Shown here piece by piece: positions 13,850 through 64,000 of a stretch of DNA of 64,000 nucleotides (the first letter of the stretch is position 1; every line of letters begins with the position of its first letter). The stretch comes from Bilabrum cf. latius (lineage: Eukaryota), in NCBI GenBank assembly GCA_965178125.1, contig OZ237767.1, forward strand, positions 372,001-436,000. Reading direction: 5' to 3'. A program made the position numbers and the translations under genes. The notes under the pieces are model-generated. The model saw only the letters and a program-made list of their open reading frames with translations. It had not been told where the DNA came from and searched no databases.

Positions 13850-16800
13850 TTATTGGGATCCATCCAAGCTGAACTTCTTCACCGCGCCCCTTGAAGACAG
13901 CGGCGGGCGGGGCTCCAAGGGTCCTTTCGCTGGCGACCTCGTGTGGCTCCTCGCGTCACTCTGACTGCGCTCTCGGCTCATGGGCGGCAGGTGCACGGGG
14001 ACAGAGGAACTGCCTTGCGACCCATGGGCCGAGGATGCAGACCCTCCGCTGCCGCCAGTGGGCGCTGCTGCAGGGTACCCAGGTGACGCTGCTGCCGCCC
14101 TCGGCACCCTTCCGCCTGCTCTTGCCCCTGCCTGGGTCTGCTACTGCTGCTGCTGCTGCTGCTGCTTCTGCCGCTTCGCCGCACTCGTCACACCAGCCCC
14201 GCCCTGCTTGGCTGCTTCCTTCAGTCGGCCCATCCTCTGCCTCAGGCTCGCCGCCCTCACGGCCCCTCTGAGCAGCCTGGCTCCCCTGCCCGGGCGACTG
14301 CCGGGAGTGCCTCGCCCGCCCAAACCAGCGCTCGTCGCGCCGGAGCCACTACTGGACATGGGCGTGGCGCTGGGCGTGAGCTGGGCCTCGTCGTGGATGG
14401 ACCGCATGTCCAGTCGCGGAGGCGGAGAAAAGGCGCCCAATGTGGGTCCGCTCGGCCGGCTGTCACCACTGGCAGTGACGTCCCGCTCGTCATCATCACC
14501 AGCACCTACCCTCTACCCGCTCGCCAAACGGACATTCCCGCTCGGCGACCGGCCCATTTTTGCCATGAGGAGAGGCCGCCCCGTAGGAGGTTTCGGACTG
14601 TTCCCTGAGAAGGACAGCGAACGTTCGATGGCCCCCGGGCTAGGGTTTGACTTGATCCCCTTTCGCGGGCTCCCCATGGCCCTTGGTGTGAGTCCGGCTG
14701 GCAGCAGGCCTCCTCCCCCTTTGGTATCTTCAGCAGCCAGCGCCGACTCCAACGAAAAGCTCCCGTGTCCGCTCGTGCCGCCTCCCGAAGATCCAGAGAG
14801 CCTGTGCCTGCCCCTGTGCCCCTGTCCTCTTGGACTGGCCTGCGCCGCCAGCATCGCCTCCGGTGTGAGGACGGGCCCATCCTCTGACAGCCGCAGCATG
14901 CTGTTCTCACGCTGCACCATTAGGAGCCTCTTCTGTTTCCTGCCCTCATCGCTGCGTCTCGAGCCCAGCGAGCCCACCGACCTGACCGAGTCCTGTCTCT
15001 TGAACCGCCGAGGAGAGGCTGACTGGCCCCTGGGGAACTGCGGCGAGTCGTTTGGGTCTGAACCGCCCCCAGTCCGCCTGCCGGCAGCCGCACCACCGTG
15101 AGCCCTAGGAGTCATTGCGCCTGCCATCTCCCTCTCATCTAGGGAGTGCCCCGACCGCACGCTCTCACCGCCCCGCATGGAAACATGATGCCTCGGTGAT
15201 ACGAGCAGGCCGGGCCCCGCAGCACCTGCCAGTGGGCCGCCCCACACGGACCCACCACCGCCCGACACGGTTGACGTGCCCTACTGCCTGGGATTCTTCG
15301 CAGGAGACGCGCTGGCGGCCTGCACCAGCTGCGGCATCACGGTGGAGGCCGCGCCCAGCCGTTCGCAAGCCAGCCTGGACTGGTTCTCAAGAAAGTTGTT
15401 CACCGGATGCGAGTCTCTCAGTTTATCAAGGCCCTGGGGCTTGTCGATGAGCGTCCTGGACGTGAAGGCGTCAATCTCCTGCGCTGCCTGCGTGGTGTAT
15501 TCGATCCATTGCTCCCGGCGCTGCTCCAGCACGAGGTTGACCCAGCCCAGCTCAGACACACCCACGTCCTCGTCTTCGTCCTCCACCCCGGGATCGGTCT
15601 CCGCCTCGGAGACTGACACAGACCCAGTCACGCTGGCCGATGACGACAGAGCGTCAGAGGACCGCTGGTGCCTGCCACTGCCGCCCAGCCGACCGCTCGT
15701 AGAACGGGCGGGCGAAGCTGCGTGTGCATGCGCATGCCCCTATGCAATGGCGATTCCTTGCTGCTTTACCGCCGCGTGCTTCTTCAGCGTGCCCTTGTGC
15801 ATGTCGTCGTCATGCACGGTCAGCTCGGCAGCTCGCTTGAACATGTCCCGCGCATGCTGCGGAATATCCTGCATCTTGGGCCTCTCGCCCCCTGTGGGGT
15901 CCACGGACGGTGCAAGGGCCGGGCAGTAGCACGCGACCAGCCCCGCAAAGTCCTGCAGACCGAGCCTGACATGCGACGCGCGCACCCCCTTCAAACCTCC
16001 GGGCACGCTGAAACCACCAGGACCCGAACGGCCACTACCGCCATGCCCACCCGCAGCAGCAGCAGCAGCCCCAGCTGTGCCACTTGCACCTGCCTTTGCA
16101 GCCTCCGCGTCTCTCTTTGCCTGCTTTGCTGACACGGGCGGCCCTCTCAGCGACCCCCTGCCCGAGGCAATCCCAACCGCCCTGCGATAGAGCAGGCGCA
16201 GCCGCCTGATGTCCCGCAGGTGCTCGCCGAACCAAAGCCCGAGCAGCGTCTCGAGAAGACTGTCTAGATCCCATCGCCGCCTCCGGAGCTGAGTCTTACC
16301 CCGGACAGACGGGTCGGTCCTGAACTCGGTCAGTCCGGAGACTCCCAGCCCCTCGGCGTCTCCTGAGGAGCCCGACGATGTGGTGGTCCCAGTCGCCTGG
16401 CGCTTGAACGGGAACGGCCCGTGCTGCTGCTGCTGCTGCTGTGGAGTGCTTGCGCCAGGGGTGCTGGCCTGTCCTGGCGTGCCTGCACCGCCAATCGCCG
16501 AATGGCCGGGCGTGTGCGCCCCTGCCGCGGATTCTGCATCTCCCTGCGTCCCTTGCTCGAGCAGCCCTTTTAGCCTCTGAAGGAAGGGCTTCTGCACCGG
16601 GCTGGCGAAAAGAGAGGACGTGATCGAGTTAATCATCCCGAATGATAGGGTGACCTGACGCCGGCGACTCGTGGCTGTCGACCTCGAGCTGGCTGCCTTG
16701 GACTTGCGGGCTTTGGCCGCCCCAGAACCAGGTGTACCGTCGCCTGCTGCTGCACCGGTCACCTCGTCGACGGTGTGGTCCATCCCGGTCCCCATCTTCT

Positions 16801-24907: not shown

Positions 24908-26143
24908 TCTTTGACGGAGACCGTGACGCTAAAACCGATGCTGGCCCATGATCCTGCCACGGGGCGTTTTGCTGCCACCCATACCCAAAATGCGGTGCGA
25001 TCGGTCTCCGGTTCCTGCGAGATGGAAGGCCAAACAAGTAGCACAGGTACTATCACAGTTAAAGCTCGCGGCAATCGCATGCTCACTGGGCCGATAGGGG
25101 TGTCTCACTGGTAGTATGCATGGGATGTTGTGCACTGCTGGCATTCGTTCCTGAACTCAGGCCATTAAACACGGACTTCAAGGGAGACTGCGATGCATAT
25201 TGAATGGCCGGAAAAAAATGCCCACGATGTTTCGCAGCGTCATAGTTTTCAGCACAATCAAAGATCTAGACCTTACATCTGTACCATAACCCGTGGGAGC
25301 GGCACGTCCGGGTTGCATGGCTGCTCAAGCAGCTATTTCTGTCTCGTTCCGTTGGATGATGCCGGCGGTCGCAACCACTACCGGGTTCTGCGCTCGCTCC
25401 CCTCGCTCCTATTACTCTTCAAGTGGACCTTCGGAAATCACCACGCCTCAGCACCTGATATACGCAGTCTGTACTTAATGTCGTGGCCCAGGGTGTTCCG
25501 CCAACTTGTTTTAGTCCTGAAAATCTGGGAGTCAAGACGCTGCCTGGTGCGACCACCACCCATCCATACGCAGTCGCGGGTTGGCAGAATATGCTATCTG
25601 TAATCGGCTGCGATGTAGCACTAGGAGAGAATCGCTGCCTTATATGTATGCCACTTTGCTCCAGTGGACCTGCTGGTGATGCTGCGGCTCTTGATCCGAT
25701 TACTAAGCACCCTCAGGCTGGGCGTGTCGGGGCCAATGCATCAGAACCCCAGCCGGGCGGACCGCGTGGTTTCGAACATCCATTCCACGATAAGTAGGCC
25801 CCGCGGGCAGCTGAAGTGGTCAGACACTTTCGCAGCATACCACGCTGAGCCGCTGAGCAGTGCCACTGCTGCGGCTCCATCGCTGCCAGTGGCAGCACTC
25901 GACTACCACCCGGTGGCAGGAAGTGCAAGAACTCTAGCTGGGCAGCCCATGCTACACCGTGCAGCCCACTAGCCCACTAGTCCATCGCCGGATGGCCAGC
26001 TCGGCAGCATGATGCATCGCATGCATGAATGATCAACACTACCTGCCTGCCATTTAGCCACATGATTGGCCGCCAGGGGCAGGTGCACTGCACGATAGGA
26101 TTCCTAGGCCAGCTGACGGCACCACTCATTCGTCAATTCCAGA

Positions 26144-30260: not shown

Positions 30261-33200
30261 TCATATGCGTGACAAGCTCTAGATTTCAACTTTTTCCTGC
30301 TTCGACATCTCACCATTTATCTCGCGCTCCATCGCAGCTCGCTTTTCGGGCTTCAGCAAGCCACCGGCCACCATACCCATACTTTCGAGCTCACCGCGAT
30401 AGCACTTCACTCGCTAAAGAACTTGCTCAGCTATCGCGTCCTTTGCCTTCCCCTTGTACAGCTCCATGGCAAGCGCCTGGTCTGTGAGCATGCCCCGTAC
30501 CAGTTTCCGCGCGTACAACTCCGGAGTGAGGGCCCCCGAATCTCTCTCCTCGAACATCTGACGCATGCGATCCTCAACCGCCATCAGCTCAATGTCAGAC
30601 CCTTCAACCCCTTTTGCCACCGCCTATTCGAGTCTAGCCTGCTCCTTCATTATGAACTCGAAGGAGAAGATCAGCATGGGGCTCAATGGCGCTCGGAGGT
30701 GATCCCGAGGCACAACGTACCCGGTCGACGCAGCGGCAGCGGCCTGTTGCTTGCCTTGACCTGCAGTTTCAGTTCCTGTCGAGTTCGACGGCGGAGGCAT
30801 AGTCCCGCTGGACCCTGGCTGGGATGCAGGAGCGGGAGTGGGAGTAGAAGTGGGAGCAGGAGCTGGAGCTGGAGCCGGGGCAGGGGTAGGTGTTGGTGCT
30901 GGTGCTGCAGCGGTTGCCTGCCTTTGCTGAGCTGCCGCTTCCATCTGGTCCATTGTATGCTTCAGCATCGCTGCGCCCTCCTTCGCCAGTTCTTCTTCAA
31001 GCTCTTTTACCTGCGCCTGTGACACCATCTGGCCCTCTACGAGGCCCTTCACGTCGCTCTCGTACGTCTGCACGCGAGACTGGACGCTCCTGAGGTCTGC
31101 CATCACGGACCGGGTCACCTCCAGGGGGCCGTCTTCGCCCTGAGCCTTGAGCCTCTTCAACTTCTCGCCAAGGGCTCGAGCCAAGAGCCGGTCCTGCCGG
31201 GCACCTTTCAGCAGTCCCTTCGTGTAGAGCTCAGGGGTGAGCTCGCCGGAGTCTCGAGAAGCAAGCATGTTCTGAATCTGGCGGTCCAGCACCATCTGCA
31301 TGCTGCGGATCTCCGTGGCCTGCGCTTCCCCCCTTGCGCTGGCTGCCTCCTGTTTCAGCCTTTCGTCCTCAGCCTGCAGGATGGTGAAGCTGAAGATGTG
31401 CTCGGCCTTCGGACCAACCGGTCCAACTGCGATATTCCGAAGCGCCGTAGCCGCCTGCTCCGCCTCCTGGCCCTTGCCCGATCCAAGCAGAGCCACCAGA
31501 CCGCCCAACGCACCTGCATCCACCACGGACTGCCTCAGACCATCCGATCCATCCGCGATATTTCCAAGTGCCCAAGCCGCCTGCTCCGCCTCCTTGCCCT
31601 TGCCCGATCCAAGCAGAGCCACCAGACCGCCCAACGCACCTGCATCCACTACGGACTGCCTCAGGCCATCCGATCCAACTGGTAGGCCGAGCCCGCTTAC
31701 GACCTTGATCACCTCACCTGGATCAGACAGTGCATGCAATGCCATAACCTCGACTGCATCGCTCATTACTTGTCTCATACTCGATGATAACTCGGCCAAT
31801 GAGCTTATCTCATATTCTATCCTCAGCTGCCATAGCACGCGATACACCCCATCCCAGTCCCCCGGCGCCACCAGCCCATCCACCACCTCCCTGATCCTGG
31901 CAACTGCTGTCTCGCACTCGGCCCCGCCAGCACGCAAGGCAGGCAGTATTGATCTGACATCAGCTGCAGATGCACGTGACACTCCCGATACCGATTCCGG
32001 CCGCATCATATGCACCGCCTCTGACACGCCCATCCTGTCCCCAGGATCAATGCACAGCAGGCCGCGCACCATGTCCGCATACCACCCAGGCCGCTTCGAC
32101 AGCACATCGTCGCCTGCAAGCGGTGCTTCACATGCATGCAGCGCAGCTGCAAGCTCCCCTGGCCTAGGCTTGCTGCCGTCCTGCACTTCACCAGGATAGT
32201 GGTCCCCGAACGGGTGCTGCCCTCCCGTAGCAAGCTCGTGCAGCAGAACGCCCAACTCCCATGACGCCTGCTTCCCAAACGGCACTACAGCATCCATGTC
32301 CCCTGCCGCTCCCCTATTCCACCCGTCCAGCACCTCAGGGGCCAGATGGGCCTGATTGCCGCCCAGCCCGTCACCACCATCCTTCAGGTACCGGTACATG
32401 ACCCCATCCAGCGCCCCCGGGATTCCAGCACCAGAGCCCAGACCAGCTGATCGCGCGGAAGCTTCACGCACATGAACGCGCAGCGAGCACCCGAGATCAA
32501 TCAGCACCGCCCGACCCACGCCCTTCGGACCCCCTTTCGAGTCCCACATCACGTTGTCCAGCTTCATGTCGCGGTGCACCACCCCGTGCTGCAGCAGGTG
32601 ATGCACGCCCTCCGCGATGTCAGAGGAGAGCTGGATCAGCACACCGTCAGGCATGGACCCCGGTTCATCTCCTTCCAAGATCTCCAGATGGTCGCACATG
32701 CGCCGCTGCAGCAGCTCCACCCCCACCATCTGGGCCTTGCGGGGCTGCAGGGAGGCGGCACCAGCCGAGGGCATGCCTTCCCCCGAAAAATCACCGTAAT
32801 CGCCGGCAGCAATGCACACCAGGCTCGGATCAGGCAGCATCTCCACCATCCACACGGGAGGCTTGCACACGCACTCGAACAGCACACGGGCCACGTTGCG
32901 GTGCTCGGGCAGGCGAGCGAGCACGTCGAACTCTTTCTGGGAATCGATGGTTTCGAGCTTGGACGTGGAAAGGCCCCAGTTGAAAACAGCCTTCACTGCA
33001 ATATGATCAGGAGTAGCATCCAAAACATCTTCTGCATTGCCTGTCGGAAGAGCCACACGAAAGACGGCCCCGAATCCGCCGTGTCCCAGCAGGATACTTC
33101 CCTTTGTTGGCTTGCTGCATGCATCTAGTAGCGGTTTGGCAAACCGTCGCCTCTATAAAGAAGTGCCTGATTTTGTCATGAGGTAGACCTCTATCACGCC

Positions 33201-33505: not shown

Positions 33506-36500
33506 ATGTCCTCGGTGAATGTATGGGCAGTAGACGAACCCGTGAAGTCTTTTGTTCTTGTGCATTCAAAGCAGCCGCTTGGTCAGCTACACGATGCGCT
33601 GACTGGTGAGTAGACAGGTTATGCTCAAAGCGGCCAACGAGGTCTCGGCAGCCTGCCAGCTGGCAAGGTGATAATAAAACATGCTTGTGACACATGCACA
33701 CGGTATATAATATTAGTTGCTTCTATTCACAGGTGTTTATGGGAAAGAGCCTGCCGGTCTTGCAGTAGGATCGACGCACGGTACCGGCTCAGCGCAGTCC
33801 GCGACGCACGCCCTTGCCCCGCTGGATGCAATGCGTAACCCACAGCAACATTTTGCGACAGCATGCAAGTCAGCCCTTGGGCCTGCCTTTGAGGCCTCTG
33901 TTGAGCTGGAGACAGCTGAGCGCCGGGGATCCAGCTCGGATACCACCTAGATCGTCTCACCGCCACCAGCCAGCGGGGCCAAAGAAATTGCCACACTCAC
34001 AGGAGTAGCATTCGCAGAACCCGATGCCCTGTTGAATGCCCTGCGCCGAGTTTCGAACGCAAGAGGCGAGGTAAACCGGCAGGATTTTGTGCGAGCATGC
34101 GGAGGCCTCATTCGGACCATGCCGCCGAGGCCGGGACCTCCGCTGTCAAAGGAGCAGTCCGAATCGCTGTTAGGGAGGCTGTTTGCGGCACTGGACACGA
34201 ACGGCGACGGTAGCCTGGACGAGAATGAGCTCGTGGCTGGGCTGCTGCTCGCCTGCCACGGCTCCACCCCAGCTCGCCTCGGCGCCATGTTCCGGCTATT
34301 CGACAGGAACGGGGATGGGCTCCTGTCAAAGGTGAGACTGTGTGAAATTGATTGCGCATGCATAGTAGGCCACTCGCTGCTGGTGTGGCTCCGGCATGCT
34401 GCCGCTGCCGCATCACCAGCGATGGGGCATTGTGCTGGTTACCCGACAGAACTGCATGTCCCTACTTGCTACTTGCTGCGCTCGTGTCGACGACCGCTGC
34501 TGCACCGCACGCTGCCTCGTCACCTATCCTTGCTACGCACAACACGCAGGCAGAATTGGTCTCAAGTCTCGAGCCAGCGTGCAGGCTGCTGCTCCAGGAG
34601 CGCCCGGACATTGCTGCCTCGGCGGGTGCGGTCGCAGTCCCGCAGCACATGCGCCCGGCAGCCATTGCGCGGGCGCTTGCCGCTCAGGCAATGGACGCTG
34701 CAGACGCCAACAATGACGGGGTGCTGTCCTTTGATGAGTTTAGACAGTGGACAAACCGGTCCCTGCCCGGGAGCGGGACAGCTGCCGCGCTGTCGAGCGA
34801 TTTCGAGCAGGGACTGGCTGACCTCGTGCGCGGGCTGGGCGGCATGGCGGCCGCGGCCCATGGCCAGCCCGATGGTGAAGATGAAGATTCCAATGCAGCG
34901 GCAGGGGCTGTCGGAAGTAGTGCCGGGGCTGGCCCGGCATCTCATGACCCTTAGCTGCCTGCTTACGTCGTGAATGCGCGCGGAGAGAACGAGGCGCGCG
35001 AGATGGCGCTAGACGTGCATGCGCCAAGGCCTGCGGGAAGCTCCTGGCGCAGCGGGATTCGGAGGCTGGCTCTACTGACTGGGCTATACACGATGGACCC
35101 GACCGAGGCGATGCATTTCTTCAGCGGATACGAGGAAGAGGGAGGAGAGGCCGGCGGCGAGGGGGGCAGCGGTGCAGGAGCAAGCGAGAGCAAGAGCAAC
35201 GGCGGGGGCAGCAGCAAAGGGGGTAACGGAGAGGGGGAGGATGCTGGTGGGCTCAGCGAGGACGGTTTCGTGCTTGCCATCGAAGCCGCAGCGGCGAGAG
35301 CGCGGGCGCAGGCAGAGCACGTCGGTGCGGAGGCTCCCCAGGAGCTTCGCGTCCATCCCTCCGTGCGGCAGGGGGTCAGCAGGAGGCTGTTTGCCGCCCT
35401 GGATGCCGACAGGAACGGTCTGGTGGATAAGAAAGAACTTGTTGCGGGTCTTGGGGTACTTTCCGGTGTGGGGAGAGGCGCACTGAGTGCAAGCGTTGCG
35501 TTCCAGGCATATGACACCGGCCGTGAAGGGGGCGTGCTTCACTGGCAGCTCGTGCGAATGCTGACTGTGACGAATCGGTTGGCCGCTGTGGCAGACCCAG
35601 AGATCATCCACTGGCTGGGTGACACGCCGGAGGGGGCGGCGAGACAGGCTGCTGACTCCGCCTTCGACTCGGCCGGGGTGTCTGTAGACGGGGGGCGGCT
35701 GTCGCAGGAAGCGTTTGAAGCTTGGTTTGGTGCCGCTGGAGCTGCGGACGCTCAGGTAGCGGCAGCGGCCACCGCTGGCTATCCTGGCGATCGGCGCGAA
35801 CAATAGCAACCGCAGCAGCAGCAGCAGCAGCAGGAGGCCATGGAGCCGGACAGGACCGCTGGGGGAGACTTCCAGGAGCTGAGCACAGCGGACTGGGACG
35901 CGAGAGTGAGTGCAGCGCATGGTGGTGGCAGTGCAGCTGGGCCCGGGATCTCGCTGGATGCCGGCGTGGTGATAGGCACTGTGCCTGAGGGAGCCAGCGA
36001 GCGTGGCAGGCGCGATTCTGCCGACGCGGACGATGCCCCAGGCCCGGCCATCTCACGCAACTTTTCCCACGCGTCTGCGGAGTCTGTGCCCATGGAAGAT
36101 GAAGAGGAGCAGAACGAGGACGGGGCATTTGGTGGCCATACGCCGGGCCTGCCCTCAGCCCCGCCGCAGCCGCAGCCGCAGCCGCAGCCGCATCCCACGA
36201 CAGGCGAACTGGAGGGCGAGCCAACTGCCTCCCGGCTCAGGGACCGCCTCCAGCGCCTGCAGAGCCAGGAATCGGTGGCGTCCAGACAGGGCGCCGAGCT
36301 GGCCAAAGGAGACGACGCTGCGCTGGCCGTTCCAAGCTTGCTGAATGAGTCCTCCACGGGGTCGGACGCAGACGCGACCGAGGGTGGCCTCACACGGCTC
36401 AGGCAGGAGGCCGGTCTGGAGCCGGCCATTGCTGCATCCGTCATACGGTGCGTACTGAGCAAAGCACTCGCGGGGCCCGCGCTCATGCAAACAAGCGCCT

Positions 36501-42564: not shown

Positions 42565-44113
42565 ATGGAAACTAAGGCAGCAACCAAGCGCAGTAGCACC
42601 CAGCCAGATGCAAACGACTGCTGCATCATAGAGCGCACGCTTGGCAATCTTGTGATAGCCAAGAAGTAGAAGCCGCAGCCGCGCGGTGCGGAAACCAAGC
42701 GCTCTGCCGCAGACCGGAGAAACTCTTCGCCGAGTGATTTCAATCCCGTGATCGTGGTGCTCGGCTGGCTCAACGGGCAAGAACGACACGTGAAGAAGTA
42801 TTCTGACCTATTCTGCAGGCTCGGGGGCGAGAATGCCGTGGCCGTTCGTTCCTTATGCGACGTGAATCAGGGCGTGTGGAGCATGCACGCCGCCAACGAG
42901 GCCAGGGTGCAAGAGCTGCTCTAGGCCCTGGATCGGGATGTGAGGATCTGATGAACGATGATCTGTTGCATGGCGATTCTTGTGCGAACATTCCGAGTTG
43001 TGGGTGGCTACGTGAAATTTGTGTGGATGATGCCCATCGCGTCCCCGGCTGTGACGTTGTCGTGCGGATGGATCCATGGGGATGGCCCGATTGCTTGCAG
43101 GCAGCGCGACCATGCCGCCCCCCACAACCCTTTTCAAATTGCCCCGCAGGAAGATTTGAAGGGTCGCCCGGTAATCATGTGTGCTTACTCGAACGGGGGC
43201 TGCCAGGTCATCGAGTTCCTGCTTCGTGCAGCGTACAGTGGCGACACGGCTGGTGAGGCTGGGCATCGTCTGGAATGTGCCCCACGATCCGAGCGTCCCC
43301 TGCCGTGAACGCGCTGTGCATGATATCTAGCAGGCAGCGTCCGGTCACTGGTCATGTCTTCTCATCCCGTGTCCCGCAGCTAAGGCGTTCGTGCAGGACC
43401 GATTGGCAGGCTACCTATTCGATTCATGCCCAGCCAAGATATCAGCACATGCTATTTCAACAGCCCTTGCGATCGGGTTCAAGCGCCAGGGCTGGTTTGT
43501 TAGCTCTGCGGCGTACTGGCTCTTCTATCTGTTGTTCTCGGCCTGGATTCTGTTCGCCGTGCTCGGTTTCTCCGAGCTCCGGCAGGAGGTGCTTCACTCA
43601 GTGGTAGCCAATGATCCGAGCAGGGTACCGACGCTCTTCATCTACTCTGACAACGATGAGATAACGGAATGCGGAGCTTTGGAGACTTTCATCGAGCGGC
43701 GGGCTGCAATCTGTTCTACAAAGGTGGAGGGTGCTCCGATAGCAACAAGGTGCAGCGAAACATCGTCCCAAGAAGCCAGGGGTCAGAGCTCCGATACGCT
43801 TGGCCATAAACGTGAAGATGGCACACCCCTCGGGACCGGACCAACCAGGAAGCGGTCTGAATCGCGAGAGCGCTAGATCTAGCCATCGCGAGAGGGTATC
43901 ACGGTTGAGACCCTGTGCGGAGTTCCCATATCCGCAACATTTCAGACCTCGCCAGCTAAACCGCATGAGCCAATGATTGGTGTGTGGAAATTGCCTAGCA
44001 GTCCACACGTTTCACACCTGATGACTTCAGCAAGCGAGTACGAGCAGAGCTTTGCCAACCACCTAGCTTGCTGCTGTGACTGGTGGAAGCATCGCTAGGT
44101 GGCAGATGCCTAA
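42565..44113 (+). CDS. TMEM53/DUF829 alpha/beta-hydrolase-like protein; several in-frame TAG; ends at TAA
   Basis: VVLGWLNGQERHVKKYS, YSNGG, FDSCP and LFIYSDND. The C-terminal SPHVSHL...EY motif is reached only by reading through TAG at 43874 and 43880. Confidence 0.85.
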
Positions 44114-49133: not shown

Positions 49134-52100
49134 TCAAATTATTCCGTAACCAATCAGCTCATCTAGCCACTGGAGCACATCCTCATCGCCGTTGGGGTCT
49201 GGCGATGAATGGCTCCTTAACTTGGCACAGATCGACGTCTTTTTCTCGGTGCCACCGCGCAGCAGCTTCGCAGCAGAGACGCCACGCTGTGCAAGTCCCC
49301 TGCGACGAACCTCTGCAGATGCCTCCTGCGTGGGTCTGAACTGGATTGCGATCTGGAAGCCCCGAACCTGCCTCCCTGACCTATCCGGGCCGACGAATGG
49401 CATGAGCCCATGCAAGGGAGCACCGTCACCTTCCGTCTGTCTGACGTGCTGCGCCGCGAACCCCTTCAGCTTGGGGTGGTCCGCAGCATGCACCTCCCAG
49501 CAGCCCCGCCCTGCAGCTTCCGTCCAGCCCTCCATGTGCAAGTAGGTGAAGGTCGGGTGGACCAGCCTCAGCGCAGGCAGATCTACATCACGGCCAGCGT
49601 CCTTTGGGCCACGCCGGGATGCACCTCTCTTTTGTCTCGTGCTCCCCGCCGCGCGGGCGGCCGATGATGACGATGACGAAGATGGGGCCTAGGACGAGGA
49701 TTTCGCGGCTAGGCTTTGGATCGCAGCTGCCCCTGCCCCTGCCCCTGCCCCTGCCCCTGCCCCTGCCCCTGCCCCTGCCCCTGCCCCTGCCCCTGCCCCT
49801 GCCCCTGCCCCTGCCCCTGCCCCTGCCCCTGCCCCTGCCCCTACCCCTACCCCTGCCCCTGCCCCTACCCCTGCCCCTCGCAAGGAGGAAGAAGAAGACG
49901 ATGAGGCAGAAGATGAAGGCAGCCCTGCGGCCTGATGGCTAGTATTGCTACCACTGCCCTTGAGCCCATCTGGAGCTGGCTGCACGCCACCCGCACCTTG
50001 CGCCCCAGCAGCACTGGAAACAGTATCAGCGGCCCTGACACGAACTTGACTCTCTCCTGCACCCGCGGAGGGAATCTCGATGACCTGCACCACACCCTTG
50101 GCCGCTCGACGGAGCAGCTCGATCGAGCACTGCACCGCAAAGGCGTAATCGTCGAACAGCCGCACCACCGTTGCGGCCTTGATCCGCCTCAGATTCATCC
50201 TGTTCTCACCCCTTCGGTTGGACTCCATGGCCAGCTCGAACCATTTGTACCTAGAGCTTGACCGGATCCATTCAGCGGGCACCTCAACTAGCTCTTTCCA
50301 GCGAACATTCTGGGGAATTCTGGAATGCCACGTGGAAGCCGCGGGATTCCTGATCCCTAGGGGCACCTGCGAGGCTGTGCCCCTTGGGACAGGGAGGGGG
50401 GGTGGACTGGCGAAGGCAACGTGGCCAATGCTGGTGCTGCTGACACTACTGCCAAACTTGGCGTTCGACCGCATTCCAACGCCAGGACTCATGCCTGCAC
50501 CCATGCCCGCGCCTATATCCAAGCCCAAACTGGCAGCACCCATGCCAGCAGGCATCCCCGTGTTCCGTGCCACGGCTTGTTCCCTGGCTTTCTCTCTCGG
50601 AGCTGTGCCTTGTACCCCAGCGGCATGCCCCGGGAAATCAAGCACGACTGCCCTTGCACTGCCTGGCAGGCCAGCAGGCGCACTCCCCCCGCCCATCCCC
50701 TCTGGAGGGCTCCTCGCCGTGGCCTAGGTCACACGGGTAATACCCACTGCCAGGGATGGTCCCCCGCTAGGCAAGATGCCACCGCCGGTCGGTGCCCCGA
50801 GCGGCAGGCCCGGTACCCTACTTGCATTCGTCACACCCTAGCCAGCGGGTGGAGCGAGGCCTGCAGCAGGGACACCCTGCACTTGCCCGGGGCCGGTTTG
50901 CATCGTGCGGGCGACCGGCAGTGGAACGGCCGTCAGGGCAGTTTTCCACGAGGGGAGGGGCGAAGGCAGCGGAGGGGGAGGGACGATGTGCGCCCCTCCG
51001 CGCGGTGCTTCTGTTGATGATGCAGGGATGTCGCCACTACTGATGATGCTAGTCGTCACGCCCTTGCTCCCACTACCGCTACCGCCGGCCAGGCCAGCGC
51101 TGCTGGTGGCTGTCGGTGCCGACTGACGAGGCGGGTGCATGCCTTGCTGAGGCAGCGCCCGTCCGTCCGGGAGAGTCGTCAGCGCCGAGGCCTTGCCTGC
51201 CGAATGGCTTGCTTCCGCGGCCCCTTGCCCATAGCCTGGTGCAGATGCAGGGCCGCAGCCGAGAGCATCGGTGGCGCTCAATTGACGGCCGTCTGGACCC
51301 CCGGCGCGGTCTATGTCGGCTTGCTCGCGCTTAGATTTCTGCCCAACGACTCTCTTGTTTACACTAACAGAGACCTAGTTCCAGGCGAACTGCGAGTCGA
51401 GCTGTTGGGATAGCACAGCCCCGTTCTGTTGGGACCTGAGCGAGGACTTCTGCTGCTGCACGCCGACTTGCAGGGCAGGCCCTGCTCGCACATCAAGTTC
51501 TTTGATCGCAGACTCACGATGCCTCTCTCCTAGCAAGCCCAATCTACCGTGCGATGCCGCTCCATGCGTATCATGCCAACCTTGACTCCTAGGTAAGCCG
51601 GCCTAGTAGCCGTTCATGTGGTCTCCCTGTCGTTGTGCCCCGTTGGATCGAGGCAGTAGACTGCGCTGCGGTGGACCCCCCGAGGGATACGCAGGGTAAA
51701 TGCCGTAGTCGTCTGAGCGAAAGGGTCCTGAGAATCCGGCAGAAGCTTTTGCAGAGTCGTCTTGAGCTCGCTGGCGTGGCGTCTCGGTGCGGCTGCCTGC
51801 CTTCCGCATGGCATCAAGTAGCTAAACGGCCATTCCCGCGCCTGCCAGGCCTACTGCTCCAGCAGTATGTCTTGTTGCGTGCTAGACGTGTGGCTGCGCG
51901 TGTGTTTGCAACGAGGAGTCTAGGATGAGCGACGCAGCGCCATGCTTGCCATGGCGCTTGTACAACTCCTCAACGCTGCATCCGAGCTGCATCGCTAGAA
52001 TCAGCACCTACTATTGCAATTGAAGCAAATAGAGCTGCTCCTCCTATCGCATTCGAAGCTTGGCTTGCTCAATTTCTGTCTTGCTTCCGTCCAGTCCGGC

Positions 52101-52475
52101 CCCAACAGAACGAAATGGTTGGCCTCGTTGCTAGGTTGCTGCGATGCCTTCCGCCTCCCGCTAGCCCCCATGGATGATGCTTGCCTGACCCATTGTTGAA
52201 TACCGTGGTAAGTGTGAGTATCCAGCTCTATCGACCCGCTAGTGCACCGTAGACTGAGCTTGGCCGCCAGACTGTGACTGTCGGCTTGATGATAACGGCA
52301 TCGGTACCGGTGGAGTGTCGCCGGCCGCAGCGATTCGGGCACGTTTACGCTGGTAATTGGTGTATGGCGGGCGAAAACTAGACTACAGAGCCGTCGGCCT
52401 TCCAACCATGCCACGACCTACGTAATCCTCGGCTTGAGGTGAAGCACCCGGCGCCACATGAGCCCGCCCAGACAT
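49134..52475 (-). CDS. Uncharacterised low-complexity protein with Gly-Ala repeat; many in-frame TAG in its 5' part
   Basis: ORF fragments 49134-49541, 49689-50696, 50838-51281 and 51603-51809 share a frame that stays open (TAG only) up to about 52590. It includes EIEQAKLRMR*EEQLYLLQLQ**VL. Ends at TGA; the start is uncertain. Confidence 0.65.
49727..49878. repeat. (CCCCTG)n hexamer microsatellite encoding poly(Gly-Ala)
   Basis: About 25 nearly perfect units. Confidence 0.95.
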
Positions 52476-53232
52476 GCCTCCGGATGGACCATGCGATATA
52501 CTAACCGGGTAAGCAGAATCCTGGGTGCTAAAGTCATGCTAATATACTCGACTGACTGCGACTTGTTGGCAAGCTTTTACAGTTGGGACGCGTCACGTGA
52601 GCGCGCAAGGAATACGAGCATTTTCAGAAGACAATCAGCCTCACCAGGTTTGGGCGGCTACTGCTACAAATCTGAGCCCATTTCGGTCCCTGCTAGCGCA
52701 GCTAAAGCACTTAATCCGCCGTAGTTTCCAGGGGCCGATGCTGCCGAACTAGCTGCGGTCGTTGGATGTTACGGCGATCTTGGCATCAATTTACTCTTGC
52801 GTACTGTACTGCTGCTACCGAGAAATATTTTTGGAAAAGTTGGCTATTCTCACATTGACTTTCCATCTTTCAGCGGACGTTGAACGGCTCGTGACACCTG
52901 CTTAGCTGCCAGGTAAGCGAATCTACCGGGCACTGCAGAGTCTCGAGCTCCTCGTTGGCTGCCTATTGCGAGCTTTTTCCCGGTGATATCCGAGAATCAA
53001 TGGTAAAATTATAACGGATATTTCAATGTGTGAGAGATAAACGCGAAATCCTAAAGGATTCAAGCGTTTATCGCTATTTCAGGCTAGCTCTAGCGCAGCT
53101 GCTGGCTGCGCGCTAGTCTGGTTTACGGTAAATATCACTACAATTGCGGGCCGCTTGCTCGGAGATAGCCGGTTAGGGCACACGTCGAGCTGTCTACTTC
53201 AAACCCCTGCACCGCTACGTGCAGACCAAGTC

Positions 53233-55318: not shown

Positions 55319-56398
55319 ATGCGTTGTCAGACTGCTTCCCTCACCCACGCAGGGCTGCTACTGCTCGGATTGGTGATGGCTGCCGTGCAAGCCTAGTACG
55401 TCGGAAATTCGAGCCGGATGTGCCGCCCCGGTGCCCAGTACGCCCGATCGTAGTTGCCTCAAAATTTACCGAGCGTAGGGATCCTCGGGGACAGCGTTTC
55501 GATCGGCTGGACTCCCGATGTAGCGTCTAACTTGGCGCACGACGCATCCGTTCAACACATCCCGTTCTCAGGGGACGGGGGCGCCCTGGATACAAAGTAC
55601 CAGATTGATTGCATGCAGTATTTCACGCGGTCCGCGCAGCTATTGGACACGTCGTACGACGTGATCGGCTTCAATTCTGGGTTGCACGACGTCAACTACT
55701 CCGGACAATACCCTGAAGAGTACACCCCAAAGCCGCAGTACGTCTCTAACCTGAGAATCATTCTGCAGAGGCTCCTCGCATCCAACGACGGACCGGGCGC
55801 GCCCCCGGGCGCCAAGCCCACACGCGTGATCTGGGTGACGACAACCCCGGTCCCGTTCAGCGCCGCCCGGGACGAGCTGGTCAAGGAGTACAACGCCGCC
55901 GCGCTGCAGGTCATGCAGCAGGACGGGTAGGGTAGGGTGACTGTGGTCGACCTGTACACCCACGTGATCTCCATATGCGGGGAACCCCCCTACACTTCGT
56001 GCAACATCAGCAACACGAGCCCCTCCCACCCCTCCCCCCACTACACCGCCGCCGGGTACCAGTACCTCGCCTCCTTCGTCACAAAGGCGGTGCAGGAGGC
56101 CCTTCAGGCGCAGGCCAAGGGCCGCCCCGTTGGTGTGACGAGTGCGCCGAAGGACACGCGGGAGGGCGCGTCACCGGTGGGGTGCGCTGGGCAGGGGGTA
56201 CCGCAGGCAAAGGGCAACAGCTCCTGCTTCTCGGACACCTCAGGGTGCATGCCCGACTCGTGGTCGTACAGCGGCTTCGGGTGCTGCGAGCTGTCCGCGG
56301 GCGCGACCTACTGCGAGGACGACTGGCACTGCTGCCCTGCGGGGAGCAAGTGCATGGAGGGGTGCAGCCTGCACGGGTGCGGGTGCGTGCCGGCGTGA
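55319..56398 (+). CDS. Secreted SGNH/GDSL hydrolase with a C-terminal granulin-like Cys domain; TAG at 55394, 55451, 55928
   Basis: Signal peptide, ILGDSVS, FNSGLHD, WVTTTPVP, VDLY and HYTAAGY. C-terminal CC...CEDDWHCCPAGSKC. Confidence 0.88.
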
Positions 56399-56576
56399 AA
56401 ATCAAGCGGGAATGGTGCAGCGGCGCAGCTTCGTAGTGCTACTGCGCAAGCTAGGGGTTGGCCCGGCGGCGGTGCATCGGGGTTATGGTTCCGGTTTTGG
56501 TGGCCCTGCGCTCAACACCATGTCAGACTGCATTCGCGCCTTTCCTCCTATCGGTTCGATCGAATTATCAGCGAAA

Positions 56577-56918
56577 ATGAGTCGAATTCATTTCAGTCTG
56601 TCTAGAGTTGCCGATGTAGCCCACAGAGTAGTGAATGGCTCCCTGGTGTTCGGGACGCTTGCGATGATTGGCGGGCTCGGGTACGGCGCCTACAGCCTGT
56701 ACGTGCTTCGCCCAGCGTATCTGAATTCAATCCGCAATGAACTAGAAGAGAAAGCGGCGGCCAAGCATGGAATTTCTGTTGAGGAGGTTAGATAGCGAGT
56801 GGCTGACGGGGACGTTGCGTTGGCAACCGAGACGGACATGATTTAGGAGGCCAAACGAAGATAGGCAGCGCAGATGGAAGCTGCAGAGAATGGGAGTAGA
56901 AGTGATTCTAGACAATGA
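56577..56918 (+). CDS. Small single-pass membrane protein, possibly COX14-like; 3 in-frame TAG
   Basis: VADVAHRVVNGSLVFGTLAMIGGLGYGAY, then a charged helix EEVR*RVA...MI*EAKRR*AAQ. Ends at TGA. Confidence 0.55.
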
Positions 56919-57200
56919 GCACGACGTCTCGTTCGCGGTGCTGCAAGCGTGAAACGGTCCGGCCGGCAGGCACTCTGTGCGCCACAGTGTGGCCCCGGCC
57001 ACTGCCGCACTGTGGGGCTGTTTTCGTCGGCGGAGTAGATCGCTGGCAGTGACTTGCAAATAGTTGCATGCTTGGTTTGTGATCTCGGTTTTACAGACAG
57101 GACTGTTGGACGAGTCGGTCTGGCTATTCAACTGATACACTGCATGGGCACGAGTACAAGGTGCCACGCGTCGTAGAGACCTTCAGAATATATGCACAAG

Positions 57201-60837
<3,637 letters not shown>

Positions 60838-60975
60838 GATGCACAGAAATCAGTGCCAGCTCGGAGGCGGTCGCCTCACTGGACGATTTCCAGTCTGTAT
60901 TTCTACAGAAGTGCCACAACGACACGCAACAAACCACAAAAGTGCAAAAAGATCCCAACAGCCCCTCAGTGTACA

Positions 60976-62303
60976 ATGGCGGATACAACAGCATCACAAC
61001 CACCAGCAAGCGTATCGCAGTCTAGTGATGACCGAGGCCCGCTGATATAGCACTTCATGGGAAGGGCTCCGCCGGCACAAAGTCGAGCGGTTGCATCTGG
61101 TAAGCTCGTCATGAGGCATTACAACTGGGAATACAAGCTAAATCTGCATGATTCCTACTCCTTCGCATTTTCCATGTGCCAATCAAGCCTGGTGCAGATG
61201 TTAGCAAAACCCTGGGCACGCCGCTCGGCAAGCTACTGCCAGCTCTGGCAAAGCAGCACGCAAAATCGTTCACGCTTGCGGACATCGAAGGAGACGATGG
61301 CGGCAAAGTGATAATATGCCCGGCTGCAGCTGTAGACACGAAGCACTTTATACACTCGCCGACGGGCCGCGTGATGGCCGTGGACCACGGTAAGCTCCGA
61401 GCGCGGCCCGCTGGAGAGGGCGCCCCAGCCGCTCCGGCCGTGCCTGAGGAGATCGAGCCGCTCCGAAAAGAGCTTGATGCAGCCGCAAATGAGTATGCGA
61501 CTAAGGTATTCGCGGGATAGGGCGGCCCACAGGGAGCGGCCGGCGCGTTTTCCCGCGGCGGCGAGATCATGGTGGTGCTGTCGGGCGAGCGCCGGGACAC
61601 GGACAATTACCTTGCCTCCCGGTGGGCCTCCCGGTGGGCCTTCGGGCCGGAGAGCGGGAAACTGCGGGGCCGCATCGAGGTTGTGTCGCACTATTTCGAG
61701 AACGGCTCCGTGTAGGCCTGCTTCGACCGGAGGTGGGACGACGTGCCACTGCGCGGGCGGGGGGGCGAGGCCGGCGCGGGACCCGGCGAGAGGGCGGGGG
61801 CGGTGCTCAGGGCAATCGCTGGCCAGGAGGCAGACTTTCAGCAGGCTATTTTGATGCATTTCGGGCACCTCTCCGACCAGGGGGTGCAGAAGACCCTCAG
61901 GAGGCTGCTCCCGGTGAGCAAGCAGCCAATGGTGTGGGAGGCCGGGCAGCACCGGACCAGGAGGTTGCTGGGACAGACCGCCCCTGCTGCGGCGGGCGGG
62001 GTGGGCGGGGCCGCGAGGATGGAGGCAGCCGCGCGGGCGAGCGGTTCGGGAGCTGCGGCGGGCGGCACGCCGGGTTCAGGCAAGAAGAGGAAGCTGCCAG
62101 TCGGTGTGGTGCAGGGCAGCCCCCAGGCGGCTCTCGCGGCCGCGATGGCTGGGGGCGGATCGGGGCTGAAGAAGCTGAAGAAGGCCAAGGGGAAGGGGAA
62201 TGGAAAGGCGGGAAGCTCGTCGCCGGCACAGCCCTCAGCCGCCTCGGAGCTACAGGCTGCGTTCAAGAAGAAGCTGAAGAAGACTGGCGGGGATGGCAAG
62301 TGA
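60976..62303 (+). CDS. CAPZA: F-actin capping protein alpha subunit with extended basic/WH2-like tail; TAG at 61048, 61518, 61713
   Basis: LI*HFMGRAPPAQ...DV, NYLASRWASRW, IEVVSHYFENGSV*A and KTLRRLLPVSKQPMVWE. One intron at about 61100-61197. Confidence 0.88.
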
Positions 62304-62548
62304 GCGATTTGAGGGGGCTGGCAACACTAAGTTGGTGTGACAAATATTTATTTTCCGTGTTCGTGTTTGGACTGATGGATGCCGTACTCCAATGGCAATG
62401 TAGAGCTACCAGTAGCACAGGATCGGTTTCAGTTCCGGTTCCGGCCGCGCCGGCGGTGGGGAACGTTCCAGGAATGGCATGCGACTGTCAGGATTTCTAT
62501 ACGGGAAAGTCCGTTTGAACATCGGCTCAGGCGCAACAGACCGCTGCA

Positions 62549-63079
62549 ATGGGAGCAGGAACATCAATCCCAAATGAACTAGTGGAGCTGTCCTACCGCG
62601 CGGGCGATGAGCCGGTGAACCACGTGGACTCGGGGCGGTATCAGTGGCACAGTGCGCAACAGGATGTATTTGAGTGGCCGACATCCGAGGATATACAAGA
62701 TGTCATAGACACGGCAAGGGTGTTTACACTTGCAGACGCTGATAACATGCATCTAGAGGCTAATGGCAGTGCGATATGGGTCCCATGTGGTGGCGGTGCA
62801 CGCTCGAGGCAAGGCATCCAAGACACTACTGGAGCGACAGAAGTACGACAAGCAACACAAGGGGGCATTTTACCTACTATAGTATGTGTTGGAGGTGGAA
62901 TTGTGGTCGGAGCAGCTGGGGGTGCCCTCATTGGCGCGGGCATCGCTACTTTTGCTGGTGTCTTCGGGATCGCGGTCGCAACAGGTGCCGTCGCATACCC
63001 AGTCGGTGGGTTCGGCGCACTTGTTGGAGGGTACTGGACTTGCCTTGCTGCTGGCTGTGGTGACTCTCAATGCGAATGA
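62549..63079 (+). CDS. Hypothetical protein with C-terminal glycine-zipper hydrophobic segment
   Basis: 176-aa ORF ending GGIVVGAAGGALIGAG...VGGFGALVGG. No homology recognised. Confidence 0.45.
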   Translation: MGAGTSIPNELVELSYRAGDEPVNHVDSGRYQWHSAQQDVFEWPTSEDIQDVIDTARVFTLADADNMHLEANGSAIWVPCGGGARSRQGIQDTTGATEVRQATQGGILPTIVCVGGGIVVGAAGGALIGAGIATFAGVFGIAVATGAVAYPVGGFGALVGGYWTCLAAGCGDSQCE

Positions 63080-64000
63080 TTCTTTTCTTGCGTGCGTTGC
63101 CTCGAAGACTTCATCAAGGCGGCATCGCTCTACTGCACAAGCTTTCGAATCCCACTAGCGCGACCACTAGCACACGTGGTACCAAAGTGCGGACCATGTA
63201 TGTTTGTTGACCCGAAAGTCGTCCAAATATTGGCCCACTAGGCTCAAATAGCCCTCTACTCCACTGCTATTCCTGTTGCAATGTTCCGGTATCGGGTCTG
63301 GACAGGTGGAGAATCGACGCACAAAACACTTCCGTGTTCGCATACCACGCACGGTTCTGGTATTGCAATGGAGCCGCAACAGATCAGCGGTACTGACATG
63401 CAGTCCAATCCAGCGGGTCTTTCCGGTAGATCGCTTCCTGTACTGCAGAACGCGGATGAGCAAGTTGCCTGGCCTGAGGCAGAGCAGGAGAACAACAAGG
63501 TTGACATCCGGCAGAAAAAACGCCAGCCAAAACAGTCACGCAGACGCCAAGAAAGAGCAGGAATCCATGGTGGTTAGCGGGGAGGCGAGGAGCCGAAGCT
63601 GCCATAGGCTGGTGCCGGAGTAGATCTGGGTATCCTACATTTCATTCTGACACTATTTGTTGCGGTTGTGCTGCTTCTTTATGTAACTTATAGTGTAGTA
63701 TGGCCAGAACAACTGTGTAGCGCGTGCCGATGCAATGAAGGTGGATCAACTAAGTAGCAAAGTGGTAGCGTAGTTGACGAGAACTGATGGGACGGACAAC
63801 GAGGGGAACCGGGTCAGAAGATTTGAAGCGACACAATGAGATAGTACGTCGTATGAGATGGGGACGCAATGGAAAAGGGAAGTATTGAGCCAATTCTATG
63901 GCCTTTGCGGCCTGAGATATGCGTGTGACGCCGTCGGCGACTCGGATCGTGTGGGAAGCAAGCGCGCCTTGCCTTCGCCTTGTGGCATTATGTAGCACGA

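What the first reader, a model, noticed from the sequence alone, without database searches (positions are those of the whole stretch)
61689..61724. TAG occupies the conserved Gln of CapZ alpha (HYFENGSV*A versus HYYEDGNVQL)
Seen: cac tat ttc gag aac ggc tcc gtg TAG gcc, with TAG at 61713-61715. Established: the family motif is HY[YF]E[DN]GNVQ. This is the best single-site evidence that the inserted amino acid is Gln and not Leu, Glu or Tyr.
Basis: partly seen in the sequence, partly recalled or inferred. Interest (0 to 1): 0.85.

Follow-up and report, generated by a model that had tools for sequence, protein, structure and literature searches.

The report
TAG read as glutamine in CapZ-alpha gene
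In this GC-rich eukaryote an in-frame TAG sits exactly where actin-capping protein alpha subunits almost always carry glutamine, which indicates that the organism reads TAG as glutamine instead of as a stop, a rare but already known kind of genetic-code change.

Summary
TAG at 61713-61715 lies in frame in a two-exon gene for F-actin capping protein alpha (Pfam PF01267, E 2e-33).

- **Family column:** with X at the TAG, the codon aligns to the last residue of H-Y-[FY]-E-[DNE]-G-N-V-Q. Of 147 distant homologues, 131 have Gln, 9 Arg, 4 Ser, and Gly, Thr and Ala one each. None has Leu, Glu or Tyr.
- **Close relatives:** two near-identical proteins (96-98%) and a 68%-identical one read Gln at this position.
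- **Transcripts:** spliced RNA-like contigs from two studies carry the TAG unchanged, so it is neither intronic nor edited.
- **Window-wide:** eleven long reading frames hold 64 in-frame TAG and 0 TAA in 13,067 codons. Three reading frames appear to end in TAA.

The best reading is a nuclear code with TAG = Gln and with TAA and TGA as stops. This is the type reported for Iotanema spirale and two phyllopharyngean ciliates.

The other TAG sites I tested fall in variable columns, so this is the most informative single site in the window. No suppressor tRNA or eRF1 could be examined, because no genome is held for this window. The lineage is unresolved; MCM3 places it among unnamed sequences near stramenopiles. 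I rate it a new member of a known kind, of moderate interest.

The parts
61713..61715 (+). In-frame TAG codon, residue 214 of the spliced protein, at the conserved Gln of the H-Y-[FY]-E-x-G-N-V-Q motif.
   Evidence: 131 of 147 homologues have Q. Relatives P0002, P0003 and P0356 read Q. The codon is retained in RNA-like contigs.
61689..61724 (+).
60976..61099 (+). Exon 1 of the capping protein alpha gene. It starts at the ATG at 60976 and ends in phase 1.
   Evidence: Reading. The spliced translation is continuous (410 aa).
61048..61050 (+). In-frame TAG in exon 1 (residue 25, PLI(TAG)HF).
   Evidence: the column is variable and Q is the commonest residue (15 of 76). The closest matches read IAQHF.
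61100..61197 (+). Intron of 98 nt, GTAAGC...TGCAG.
   Evidence: One search gives the intron ends; three RNA-like contigs (X5 record 11, X6 record 16, X7 record 22) all end their laid part at 61197 and carry 151, 115 and 119 further letters. The joint itself was not among the rows shown.
61198..62303 (+). Exon 2, ending with the TGA stop at 62301-62303. It holds the PF01267 match and then a Gly/Ala/Lys-rich tail of about 110 residues.
   Evidence: X5 record 12 covers 62014-62363.
61518..61520 (+). In-frame TAG (VFAG(TAG)GG).
   Evidence: The family column is variable. The 68% relatives P0002 and P0355 read VFAGQSG. The ORFs of near-identical relatives P0004 and P0357 stop exactly here.
60634..60636 (-). 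In-frame TAG in the first covered exon of the neighbouring, divergently transcribed MCM3 gene (NKF(TAG)DFL).
   Evidence: the column has Q 15, T 13, R 7, K 7, E 5, L 5 among the 63 of 120 homologues that cover it.
14141..14143 (-). TAG inside a poly-Gln run (QQQQQQQ(TAG)QTQ) of a 3,774-codon reading frame.
35804..35806 (+). TAG next to a poly-Gln run (REQ(TAG)QPQQQQQQQ) in an EF-hand protein gene.
13850..13852 (-). The only TAA in the 3,774-codon TGA-to-TGA frame, five codons before the TGA. It is the probable real stop.

Best explanation
The window is nuclear DNA of a GC-rich (about 61%), intron-poor eukaryote whose cytoplasmic ribosomes read UAG as glutamine, while UGA and very probably UAA still terminate. 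The codon at 61713-61715 therefore encodes the conserved Gln of the H-Y-[FY]-E-x-G-N-V-Q strand of F-actin capping protein alpha. The gene (exons 60976-61099 and 61198-62303) is intact and expressed.

Shown here:
- TAG is in frame, exonic and unedited.
- Translation must continue through it to reach conserved downstream residues.
- TAG corresponds to Gln in homologues and in close relatives.

Inferred from what is established for other UAG-to-Gln lineages, and not tested here:
- Decoding by a tRNA-Gln whose anticodon has changed from CUG to CUA.
- An eRF1 that no longer recognises UAG efficiently.

The confidence given (0.9) is for TAG = Gln at this site. For TAA remaining a stop my confidence is about 0.8.
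For: (1) Pfam PF01267 at E 2e-33. Solved CapZ alpha chains align the TAG to the Q of hYfEdGnVQ.

(2) With X at the TAG, 131 of 147 distant representatives have Q and none has L, E or Y. This is the only Gln column among the 23 columns that are at least 80% conserved.

(3) Conserved residues downstream of both exon-2 TAGs are present: E208, K229, R232, R233, L235, P236 and W244. The window matches the dominant residue at 18 of the 23 conserved columns.

(4) Close relatives:
- P0003 and P0356 (96-98% identical) start at M122, read GSVQACF, and end at RRLLG, where the window has CAG.
- P0004 and P0357 end at KVFAG, which is the position of the window's TAG at 61518.
- P0002 and P0355 (68%) read Q at both exon-2 TAG sites.
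These ORFs were evidently called with standard stops, so their Q is a CAA or CAG codon.

(5) RNA-like contigs:
- X5 and X6 skip three CT..AC (GT..AG on the minus strand) introns of MCM3, and X7 skips one.
- X1 spans everything unspliced.
- X5 covers 61197-61979 and X7 covers 61596-61780 with 0 differences.

(6) Window-wide counts:
- 64 TAG, 0 TAA and 0 TGA in 13,067 in-frame codons of eleven long ORF segments, against 146 TAG and 53 TAA in 26,112 off-frame codons.
- 13.6 in-frame TAA would be expected if TAA:TAG followed CAA:CAG.
- TAGs sit inside poly-Gln runs.
- TAA ends the 3,774-codon frame five codons before its TGA.
- TAA also ends the EGF-like (12981-13652) and DUF829 (43175-44110) frames.
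Against: - No tRNA of any kind is in the window, Rfam gave nothing, and no genome is held. The decoding tRNA and eRF1 are therefore unseen.
- There is no protein-level evidence.
- Several TAG sites lie where homologues do not have Gln: GH2 site 311 has S 30, G 27, P 9, E 3, A 2, T 1, Y 1 and Q 0 of 73. The AIF-like site aligns to G, G, N, T in the 4 chains shown. These are variable columns in distant homologues, so they do not support Gln and do not contradict it.
- TAG has a Gln neighbour in 7 of 64 cases (0.109), close to Gln itself (0.112), but this is not distinguishable from other residues.
- The tool labels the RNA nature of X5-X7 a guess, and labels X5 'probably DNA'. I rely on their spliced contigs.
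- The zero-TAA count partly rests on ORF segments that I trimmed at TAA codons near their ends. Untrimmed, the eleven frames hold 6 TAA. One is 5 codons before the closing TGA of the longest frame and one is at residue 13 of an ORF with no family match. One is at residue 163 of 1,175, upstream of the first kinase match at residue 234. Three are at residues 169, 474 and 572 of 1,232, upstream of the PIG-P domain at 582-689.
- One frame has a TAG five codons before its TGA (30279-30281), so occasional termination at TAG is not excluded.
Confidence: 0.9

Rival explanations
1. Both TAG and TAA encode Gln and TGA is the only stop (the common ciliate, hexamitid and dasycladalean code, NCBI table 6). 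TAA would be rare only because the genome is GC-rich.
For: All eleven long frames end at TGA by construction. TAA is the rarest of the three triplets in the window (187 + 194 occurrences). CAA is about five times rarer than CAG. 64 kb is a small sample.
Against: There are 0 in-frame TAA in 13,067 codons, where 13.6 are expected from the CAA:CAG ratio (P about 1e-6). With the two ORFs that lack family support left out, 6.2 are expected (P about 0.002). The off-frame rate would give about 26. The single TAA of the 3,774-codon frame lies 5 codons from its end. Two frames with Pfam domains end in TAA.
Confidence: 0.12
2. TAG is a sense codon but stands for an amino acid other than Gln (Leu as in the rhizarian exLh and some phyllopharyngean ciliates, or Glu, Tyr or Lys as in other lineages).
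For: At some TAG sites the homologues show other residues. The MCM3 site has T 13, R 7, K 7, E 5, L 5 beside Q 15. GH2 site 291 has T 24, D 19, E 12, Q 4. GH2 site 311 has no Q.
Against: At the only strongly conserved column, 131 of 147 homologues have Q and none has L, E, Y or K. Relatives at 96-98% and at 68% identity read Q at the window's TAG sites: 3 of 3 site-by-relative comparisons available. TAGs occur inside poly-Gln runs. Q is the commonest residue at the exon-1 site (15 of 76) and at the MCM3 site (15 of 63).
Confidence: 0.04
3. TAG has two meanings: Gln inside genes and stop near some 3' ends (a context-dependent code).
For: The kinase/armadillo frame has a TAG five codons before its TGA (30279-30281). 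The COX14-like frame has three TAGs in its last 45 codons, after a body of about 72 residues from the first Met after the last stop, counted by eye (56139-56915).
Against: No gene in the window requires a TAG stop. The residues after these TAGs read like ordinary coding sequence. There are no 3'-end data. TAA and TGA are available as stops.
Confidence: 0.1
4. The TAG is a nonsense mutation in a dead gene, or it lies in an intron, or it is restored to CAG by RNA editing.
For: Under the standard code the gene is interrupted three times.
Against: Every long gene in the window carries in-frame TAGs. Conserved residues continue downstream of the TAGs. RNA-like contigs from two studies cover the site with 0 differences and no joint. 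Relatives keep the gene.
Confidence: 0.01

Closest known systems
UAG-only reassignment to Gln in Iotanema spirale (Metamonada, Fornicata); Panek et al. 2017, PMC5304391 (abstract read)
   Same: UAG is read as Gln while UAA, along with UGA, is kept as a terminator. The inference was made from in-frame UAG at conserved positions of transcripts.
   Different: By the abstract, UAA is the primary terminator in Iotanema. Here TGA closes most frames. The lineage here appears different: its MCM3 groups with unnamed sequences near stramenopiles, and the genome is about 61% GC.
UAG to Gln in the phyllopharyngean ciliates Hartmannula sinica and Trochilia petrani; McGowan et al. 2024, PMC11687900 (abstract read)
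   Same: UAG alone is reassigned, putatively to Gln, and UAA is kept as a stop.
   Different: Those are ciliates with UAA as the preferred stop. Nothing in this window suggests a ciliate: it is GC-rich, lies on a long contig (the best DNA run holds the 7-kb stretch I laid within one 14,319-letter contig), and has GT-AG introns of 98-236 nt.
UAR to Gln codes (NCBI table 6: many ciliates, hexamitid diplomonads, dasycladalean and other ulvophytes, oxymonads, aphelids). The taxon list is recalled; hexamitins are named in the PMC5304391 abstract.
   Same: A stop codon one transition away from CAG is captured for Gln.
   Different: In those codes TAA is also a sense codon. Here 0 of 13,067 in-frame codons are TAA.
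F-actin capping protein alpha subunit (CapZ alpha; PF01267; solved chains 4akr_A, 1izn_A, 5adx_K)
   Same: Full-length match to the family profile, the signature strand motif, and the C-terminal LRRxLPV...W segment.
   Different: Ser replaces the nearly invariant Asn of the motif (145 of 147 have N). Three Gln positions are encoded by TAG. A low-complexity basic tail of about 110 residues follows the family region.

Membership tests
F-actin capping protein alpha (PF01267) | Whole-protein score above Pfam's gathering threshold | tested here: met
   116.5 bits against 24.2, E 2e-33, profile positions 34-259 of 263 from exon 2 alone.
F-actin capping protein alpha (PF01267) | Signature strand H-Y-[FY]-E-[DNE]-G-N-V-Q | tested here: met
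   the window reads H Y F E N G S V (TAG). It matches except for S in place of N (145 of 147 have N). The last position is the TAG.
F-actin capping protein alpha (PF01267) | Conserved C-terminal segment (E208, K229, RR232-233, L235, P236, W244 in query numbering) | tested here: met
   all of these residues are present downstream of both exon-2 TAGs.
F-actin capping protein alpha (PF01267) | Forms a heterodimer with a beta subunit and caps barbed ends | not testable with these tools
   No beta-subunit gene is in the window and no genome is held.
Nuclear code with UAG = Gln and UAA/UGA = stop (Iotanema type, NCBI table 15 pattern) | In-frame UAG in expressed, conserved genes, with conserved sequence continuing downstream | tested here: met
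Nuclear code with UAG = Gln and UAA/UGA = stop (Iotanema type, NCBI table 15 pattern) | UAG positions correspond to Gln in homologues | tested here: met
   Q in 131 of 147 homologues at the one conserved column. Q in relatives at 3 of 3 comparisons. Q is the commonest residue at two further sites. Five further sites are in uninformative variable columns.
Nuclear code with UAG = Gln and UAA/UGA = stop (Iotanema type, NCBI table 15 pattern) | UAA is excluded from coding frames and used as a terminator | tested here: met
   0 of 13,067 in-frame codons are TAA. Three frames appear to end in TAA. The sample is small and the segments were partly trimmed.
Nuclear code with UAG = Gln and UAA/UGA = stop (Iotanema type, NCBI table 15 pattern) | A cognate tRNA-Gln with anticodon CUA | not testable with these tools
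   0 tRNA genes in the window, 0 Rfam hits, no genome.
Nuclear code with UAG = Gln and UAA/UGA = stop (Iotanema type, NCBI table 15 pattern) | eRF1 altered in stop-codon recognition | not testable with these tools
UAR = Gln code (NCBI table 6) | TAA used as a sense codon alongside TAG | tested here: not met
   0 TAA against 64 TAG in frame.

The most novel reading that the evidence does not exclude
This would be an independent, so far unreported UAG-only reassignment to Gln, with UAA and UGA kept as stops. It would sit in a GC-rich, free-living-type eukaryote related to stramenopiles, a supergroup for which four literature searches found no nuclear stop-codon reassignment. That would add a case outside ciliates, metamonads and Rhizaria in which the meanings of UAG and UAA are decoupled. 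It would come with a contiguous genome assembly and RNA data in which the responsible tRNA and eRF1 changes could be read directly.
Probability: 0.4. Interest if true: 0.7.

Novelty: new member of a known kind. Interest (0 to 1): 0.55.

Why it matters
Changes in the nuclear genetic code are rare. Cases in which UAG changes meaning while UAA stays a stop are rarer still: the abstracts I read name Iotanema spirale, a rhizarian and some phyllopharyngean ciliates. Each independent case tests whether the ribosome, eRF1 and tRNA-Gln can separate the two codons, and how GC content and stop-codon usage favour capture.

There is also a practical consequence. Gene callers that use the standard code cut this organism's genes into pieces. 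The database relatives of this gene are already stored as such fragments of 112, 122 and 135 residues. Annotation, orthology and phylogenomics for this lineage will be wrong unless TAG is translated as Gln.

Tried and rejected
- **Whole genome:** none is held for this window, so no tRNA, eRF1 or genome-wide codon survey was possible.
- **Earlier findings of this scan:** three look-ups returned nothing.
- **Related DNA in metagenome contigs:** The single-protein scan returned one locus, L001. Its translation shows only a chance match to one search pattern and no capping-protein motif, so I discarded it. No DNA of the close relatives could therefore be read, and their codons at the TAG sites are inferred from their called proteins.
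- **GH2 gene as a source of more sites:** there were no close relatives; the best was 56% identical over 11% of the query. All four aligned sites are in variable columns and the fifth had no alignment.
- **AIF-like site:** a variable column.
- **Gln-neighbour enrichment:** inconclusive.
- **Protein Atlas on MCM3:** only generic MCM clusters, with no taxonomic resolution.
- **Cluster look-up:** no organism names.
- **Sequencing runs:** no listed holder is on record as RNA. The RNA nature of X5-X7 is the tool's guess, and I judged it from their spliced contigs. The exon 1 to exon 2 joint of the capping-protein gene was not among the joints printed.
- **Literature:** four searches found no paper on a nuclear UAG reassignment in stramenopiles. 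The library is incomplete, supplements are closed, and I read only two abstracts (PMC5304391, PMC11687900), so this does not show that the case is unpublished.

Full report
**The observation.** Window 61689-61724 on the + strand reads cac tat ttc gag aac ggc tcc gtg TAG gcc tgc ttc, which translates as HYFENGSV*ACF.

**The gene.**
- The same frame is open from 61152 to a TGA at 62301-62303 apart from two TAGs.
- Translated with TAG as Gln, exon 2 matches Pfam PF01267, F-actin capping protein alpha, at E 2e-33. The score is 116.5 bits against a cut-off of 24.2, over profile positions 34-259 of 263.
- It also matches ten distinct solved CapZ alpha sequences.
- My gene model is exon 1 at 60976-61099 (starting at the ATG), a 98-nt GTAAGC...GCAG intron at 61100-61197 in phase 1, and exon 2 at 61198-62303. 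The spliced product is 410 residues.
- It has three in-frame TAGs, at 61048-61050, 61518-61520 and 61713-61715.

- A full HMMER search of 1.84 billion cluster representatives found 435 proteins at E 0.001 or better, and listed the best 150.
- Three of the 150 are close relatives. The other 147 are at most 40% identical to the query.
- I re-aligned these with the query carrying X at the TAGs, so that the result does not depend on the residue I assumed. All 147 cover the site.
- Residues at the site: Q 131, R 9, S 4, and G, T and A one each. None has Leu, Glu, Tyr or Lys.
- The neighbouring columns give H 145, Y 138, F/Y 92/52, E 146, D/N/E 88/20/18, G 144, N 145 and V 121.
- Of 219 columns covered by at least 75 homologues, 23 are at least 80% one residue. 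Only one of these is a Gln column, and it is the column that holds the TAG.
- The window matches the dominant residue at 18 of the 23 conserved columns, including seven that lie downstream of both exon-2 TAGs. Translation therefore has to pass through the TAGs to make the conserved C-terminal part.

**Close relatives give the strongest evidence.**
- P0003 and P0356 are 135-residue proteins, 96-98% identical to the window. Both start at the Met 17 codons after the TAG at 61518, and both read GSVQACF across the site of the finding. Both end at RRLLG, where the window's next codon is CAG.
- P0004 and P0357 (98% identical) end at KVFAG, exactly at the window's TAG at 61518.
- P0002 and P0355 (68% identical) read VFAGQSG and HYFENGNLQAKF, so they have Gln at both exon-2 TAG positions.
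- These fragments are what a standard-code gene caller makes of such a gene, so their Q stands for CAA or CAG.
- The overall pattern is what synonymous exchange between CAG and TAG predicts. TAG in one strain corresponds to Q in another, and Q here corresponds to an ORF end there. I could not read the relatives' DNA, so their codons are inferred.

**Is the TAG in the mRNA?**
- Run X1 holds the laid 7-kb stretch (56500-63500) unspliced in one contig.
- Contigs of X5 and X6 (one study) skip 59090-59325, 59594-59790 and 60278-60385 in the neighbouring minus-strand MCM3 gene, and X7 (another study) skips one of these. All have CT..AC ends, which is GT..AG on the coding strand. Those contigs are therefore spliced transcripts, although the tool marks the RNA label as a guess.
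- X5 record 11 covers 61197-61979 and X7 record 23 covers 61596-61780, each with 0 differences and 0 gaps.
- Three contigs end their laid part at 61197, the predicted acceptor site, and carry 115-151 further letters. The joint itself was not among the rows printed.
- The TAG is thus exonic and not edited to CAG.

**The rest of the window.**
- With TGA as the only stop, the window has reading frames of 3,774, 2,060, 1,232, 1,220, 1,175, 1,152 and 1,092 codons.
- Genes recognised by Pfam:
  - MCM3;
  - an AIF-like Rieske/FAD oxidoreductase;
  - a GH2 glycosidase;
  - PIG-P;
  - a kinase with armadillo repeats;
  - EF-hand and ankyrin proteins;
  - an acyltransferase;
  - a COX14-like protein, DUF829, and MORN and EGF-like proteins;
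  - a UBC fragment.
- In 13,067 in-frame codons of eleven segments there are 64 TAG, 0 TAA, 406 CAG and 86 CAA. Off frame there are 146 TAG and 53 TAA in 26,112 codons.
- If TAA were a sense codon in the CAA:CAG proportion, 13.6 would be expected. Leaving out the two ORFs that have no family match, 6.2 would be expected.
- I trimmed some segments at TAA codons near their ends. Untrimmed, the eleven frames hold six TAA. One is five codons before the closing TGA of the 3,774-codon frame and one is at residue 13 of an ORF with no family match. The other four lie upstream of the first Pfam match of their frame.
- Two frames with Pfam domains end in TAA.
- TAGs lie in or beside poly-Gln runs at 14141-14143 and 35804-35806.
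- I conclude that TAG is a sense codon with near certainty, and that TAA is still a stop with about 0.8 confidence.

**Other TAG sites.** These are less informative.
- Exon-1 site: Q 15, S 13, T 11, R 9 among 76 homologues.
- MCM3 site: Q 15, T 13, R 7, K 7, E 5, L 5 among 63.
- GH2 site 291: T 24, D 19, E 12, S 4, Q 4.
- GH2 site 311: S 30, G 27, P 9 and no Q among 73.
- GH2 site 329: Q 8 is the commonest residue, and the closest hit, P0163, has Q.
- GH2 site 131: G 8 of 18 (all GH2 sites).
- AIF-like site: G, G, N, T in the four chains shown.
- None of these contradicts Gln and none proves it.

**Mechanism.**
- Shown: UAG is translated, and the residue corresponds to Gln.
- Inferred from other UAG-to-Gln lineages: a tRNA-Gln with anticodon CUA, one mutation away from CUG, together with an eRF1 that has lost UAG recognition but keeps UAA and UGA.
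- Neither could be looked for. The window has no tRNA gene and no Rfam match, and no genome is held.

**What the organism is.**
- The best named MCM3 matches are oomycetes, a labyrinthulomycete, ochrophytes and fungi, at 53-60% identity over the full region.
- I built a FastTree of the 120 listed hits plus the window. This is a biased sample, rooted at the midpoint.
- The window falls in a 12-row clade of unnamed sequences (support 99), inside the part of the tree that holds the stramenopiles and apart from the fungi.
- This is a lead, not a placement.

**Comparison with what is known.** UAG-only reassignment to Gln with UAA retained as a stop is described for Iotanema spirale (PMC5304391, abstract). 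It is also described for Hartmannula sinica and Trochilia petrani (PMC11687900, abstract). Four searches found nothing on a nuclear reassignment in stramenopiles. The library is partial, and I could not see supplements.

**Verdict.** It is a new member of a known kind, and the interest is moderate.

Noticed in passing
window 13850-13852 (-), 13653-13655 (+), 44111-44113 (+), and all long ORFs: TAA is absent from coding frames (0 of 13,067 codons) while TAG is common (64), and three frames appear to end in TAA. The code therefore looks like UAG-only to Gln, not the usual UAR to Gln.
   Followed up: partly
window 57174-60837 (-) and 60976-62303 (+): MCM3 and capping protein alpha are divergent neighbours, with about 140 bp between the last covered MCM3 base and the CapZ ATG. 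In a distant relative, the MCM3 protein P0239 and the CapZ alpha protein P0358 both list a longest contig of 42,860 bases, which hints at conserved synteny.
   Followed up: no
window 56139-56915 (+): The COX14-like reading frame has three TAGs within its last 45 codons, after a body of about 72 residues counted by eye from the first Met after the last stop. This is either a Gln-rich tail or a place where TAG might terminate.
   Followed up: no
window 30279-30281 (-): The kinase/armadillo-repeat gene has a TAG five codons before its TGA. This is the only other hint that TAG might sometimes terminate.
   Followed up: no
window 61707-61709 (+): The capping protein has Ser where 145 of 147 homologues have the Asn of the H-Y-F-E-x-G-N-V-Q motif. 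The 96-98% relatives share the Ser, and the 68% relative has Asn.
   Followed up: partly
window 61971-62300 (+): A Gly/Ala/Lys-rich tail of about 110 residues follows the end of the capping-protein family region. It contains KKRK and KKLKK patches that look like nuclear-localisation signals; that comparison is from recall and was not tested.
   Followed up: no
window 13835-25156 (-): A 3,774-codon reading frame with 15 TAGs, long low-complexity tracts ((GD)n, poly-Q, poly-S) and only one sub-threshold Pfam hit (TrAA12-like, 26.9 bits against a cut-off of 30.9).
   Followed up: no
window 57436-58371: Depth peaks of hundreds to thousands, and many false joints in all four runs, over the acidic Asp/Glu-rich repeats of the MCM3 tail. 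This is a repeat artefact of contig laying and not a feature of the gene.
   Followed up: no
window 1-64000: No tRNA gene (ARAGORN) and no Rfam family at gathering score in 64 kb.
   Followed up: yes
window 49137-52592 (-): A 1,152-codon frame without any family match has the highest TAG density in the window (15, including a TAG-TAG pair at 52008-52013) and an unusually high CAA share (28 CAA to 36 CAG).
   Followed up: no
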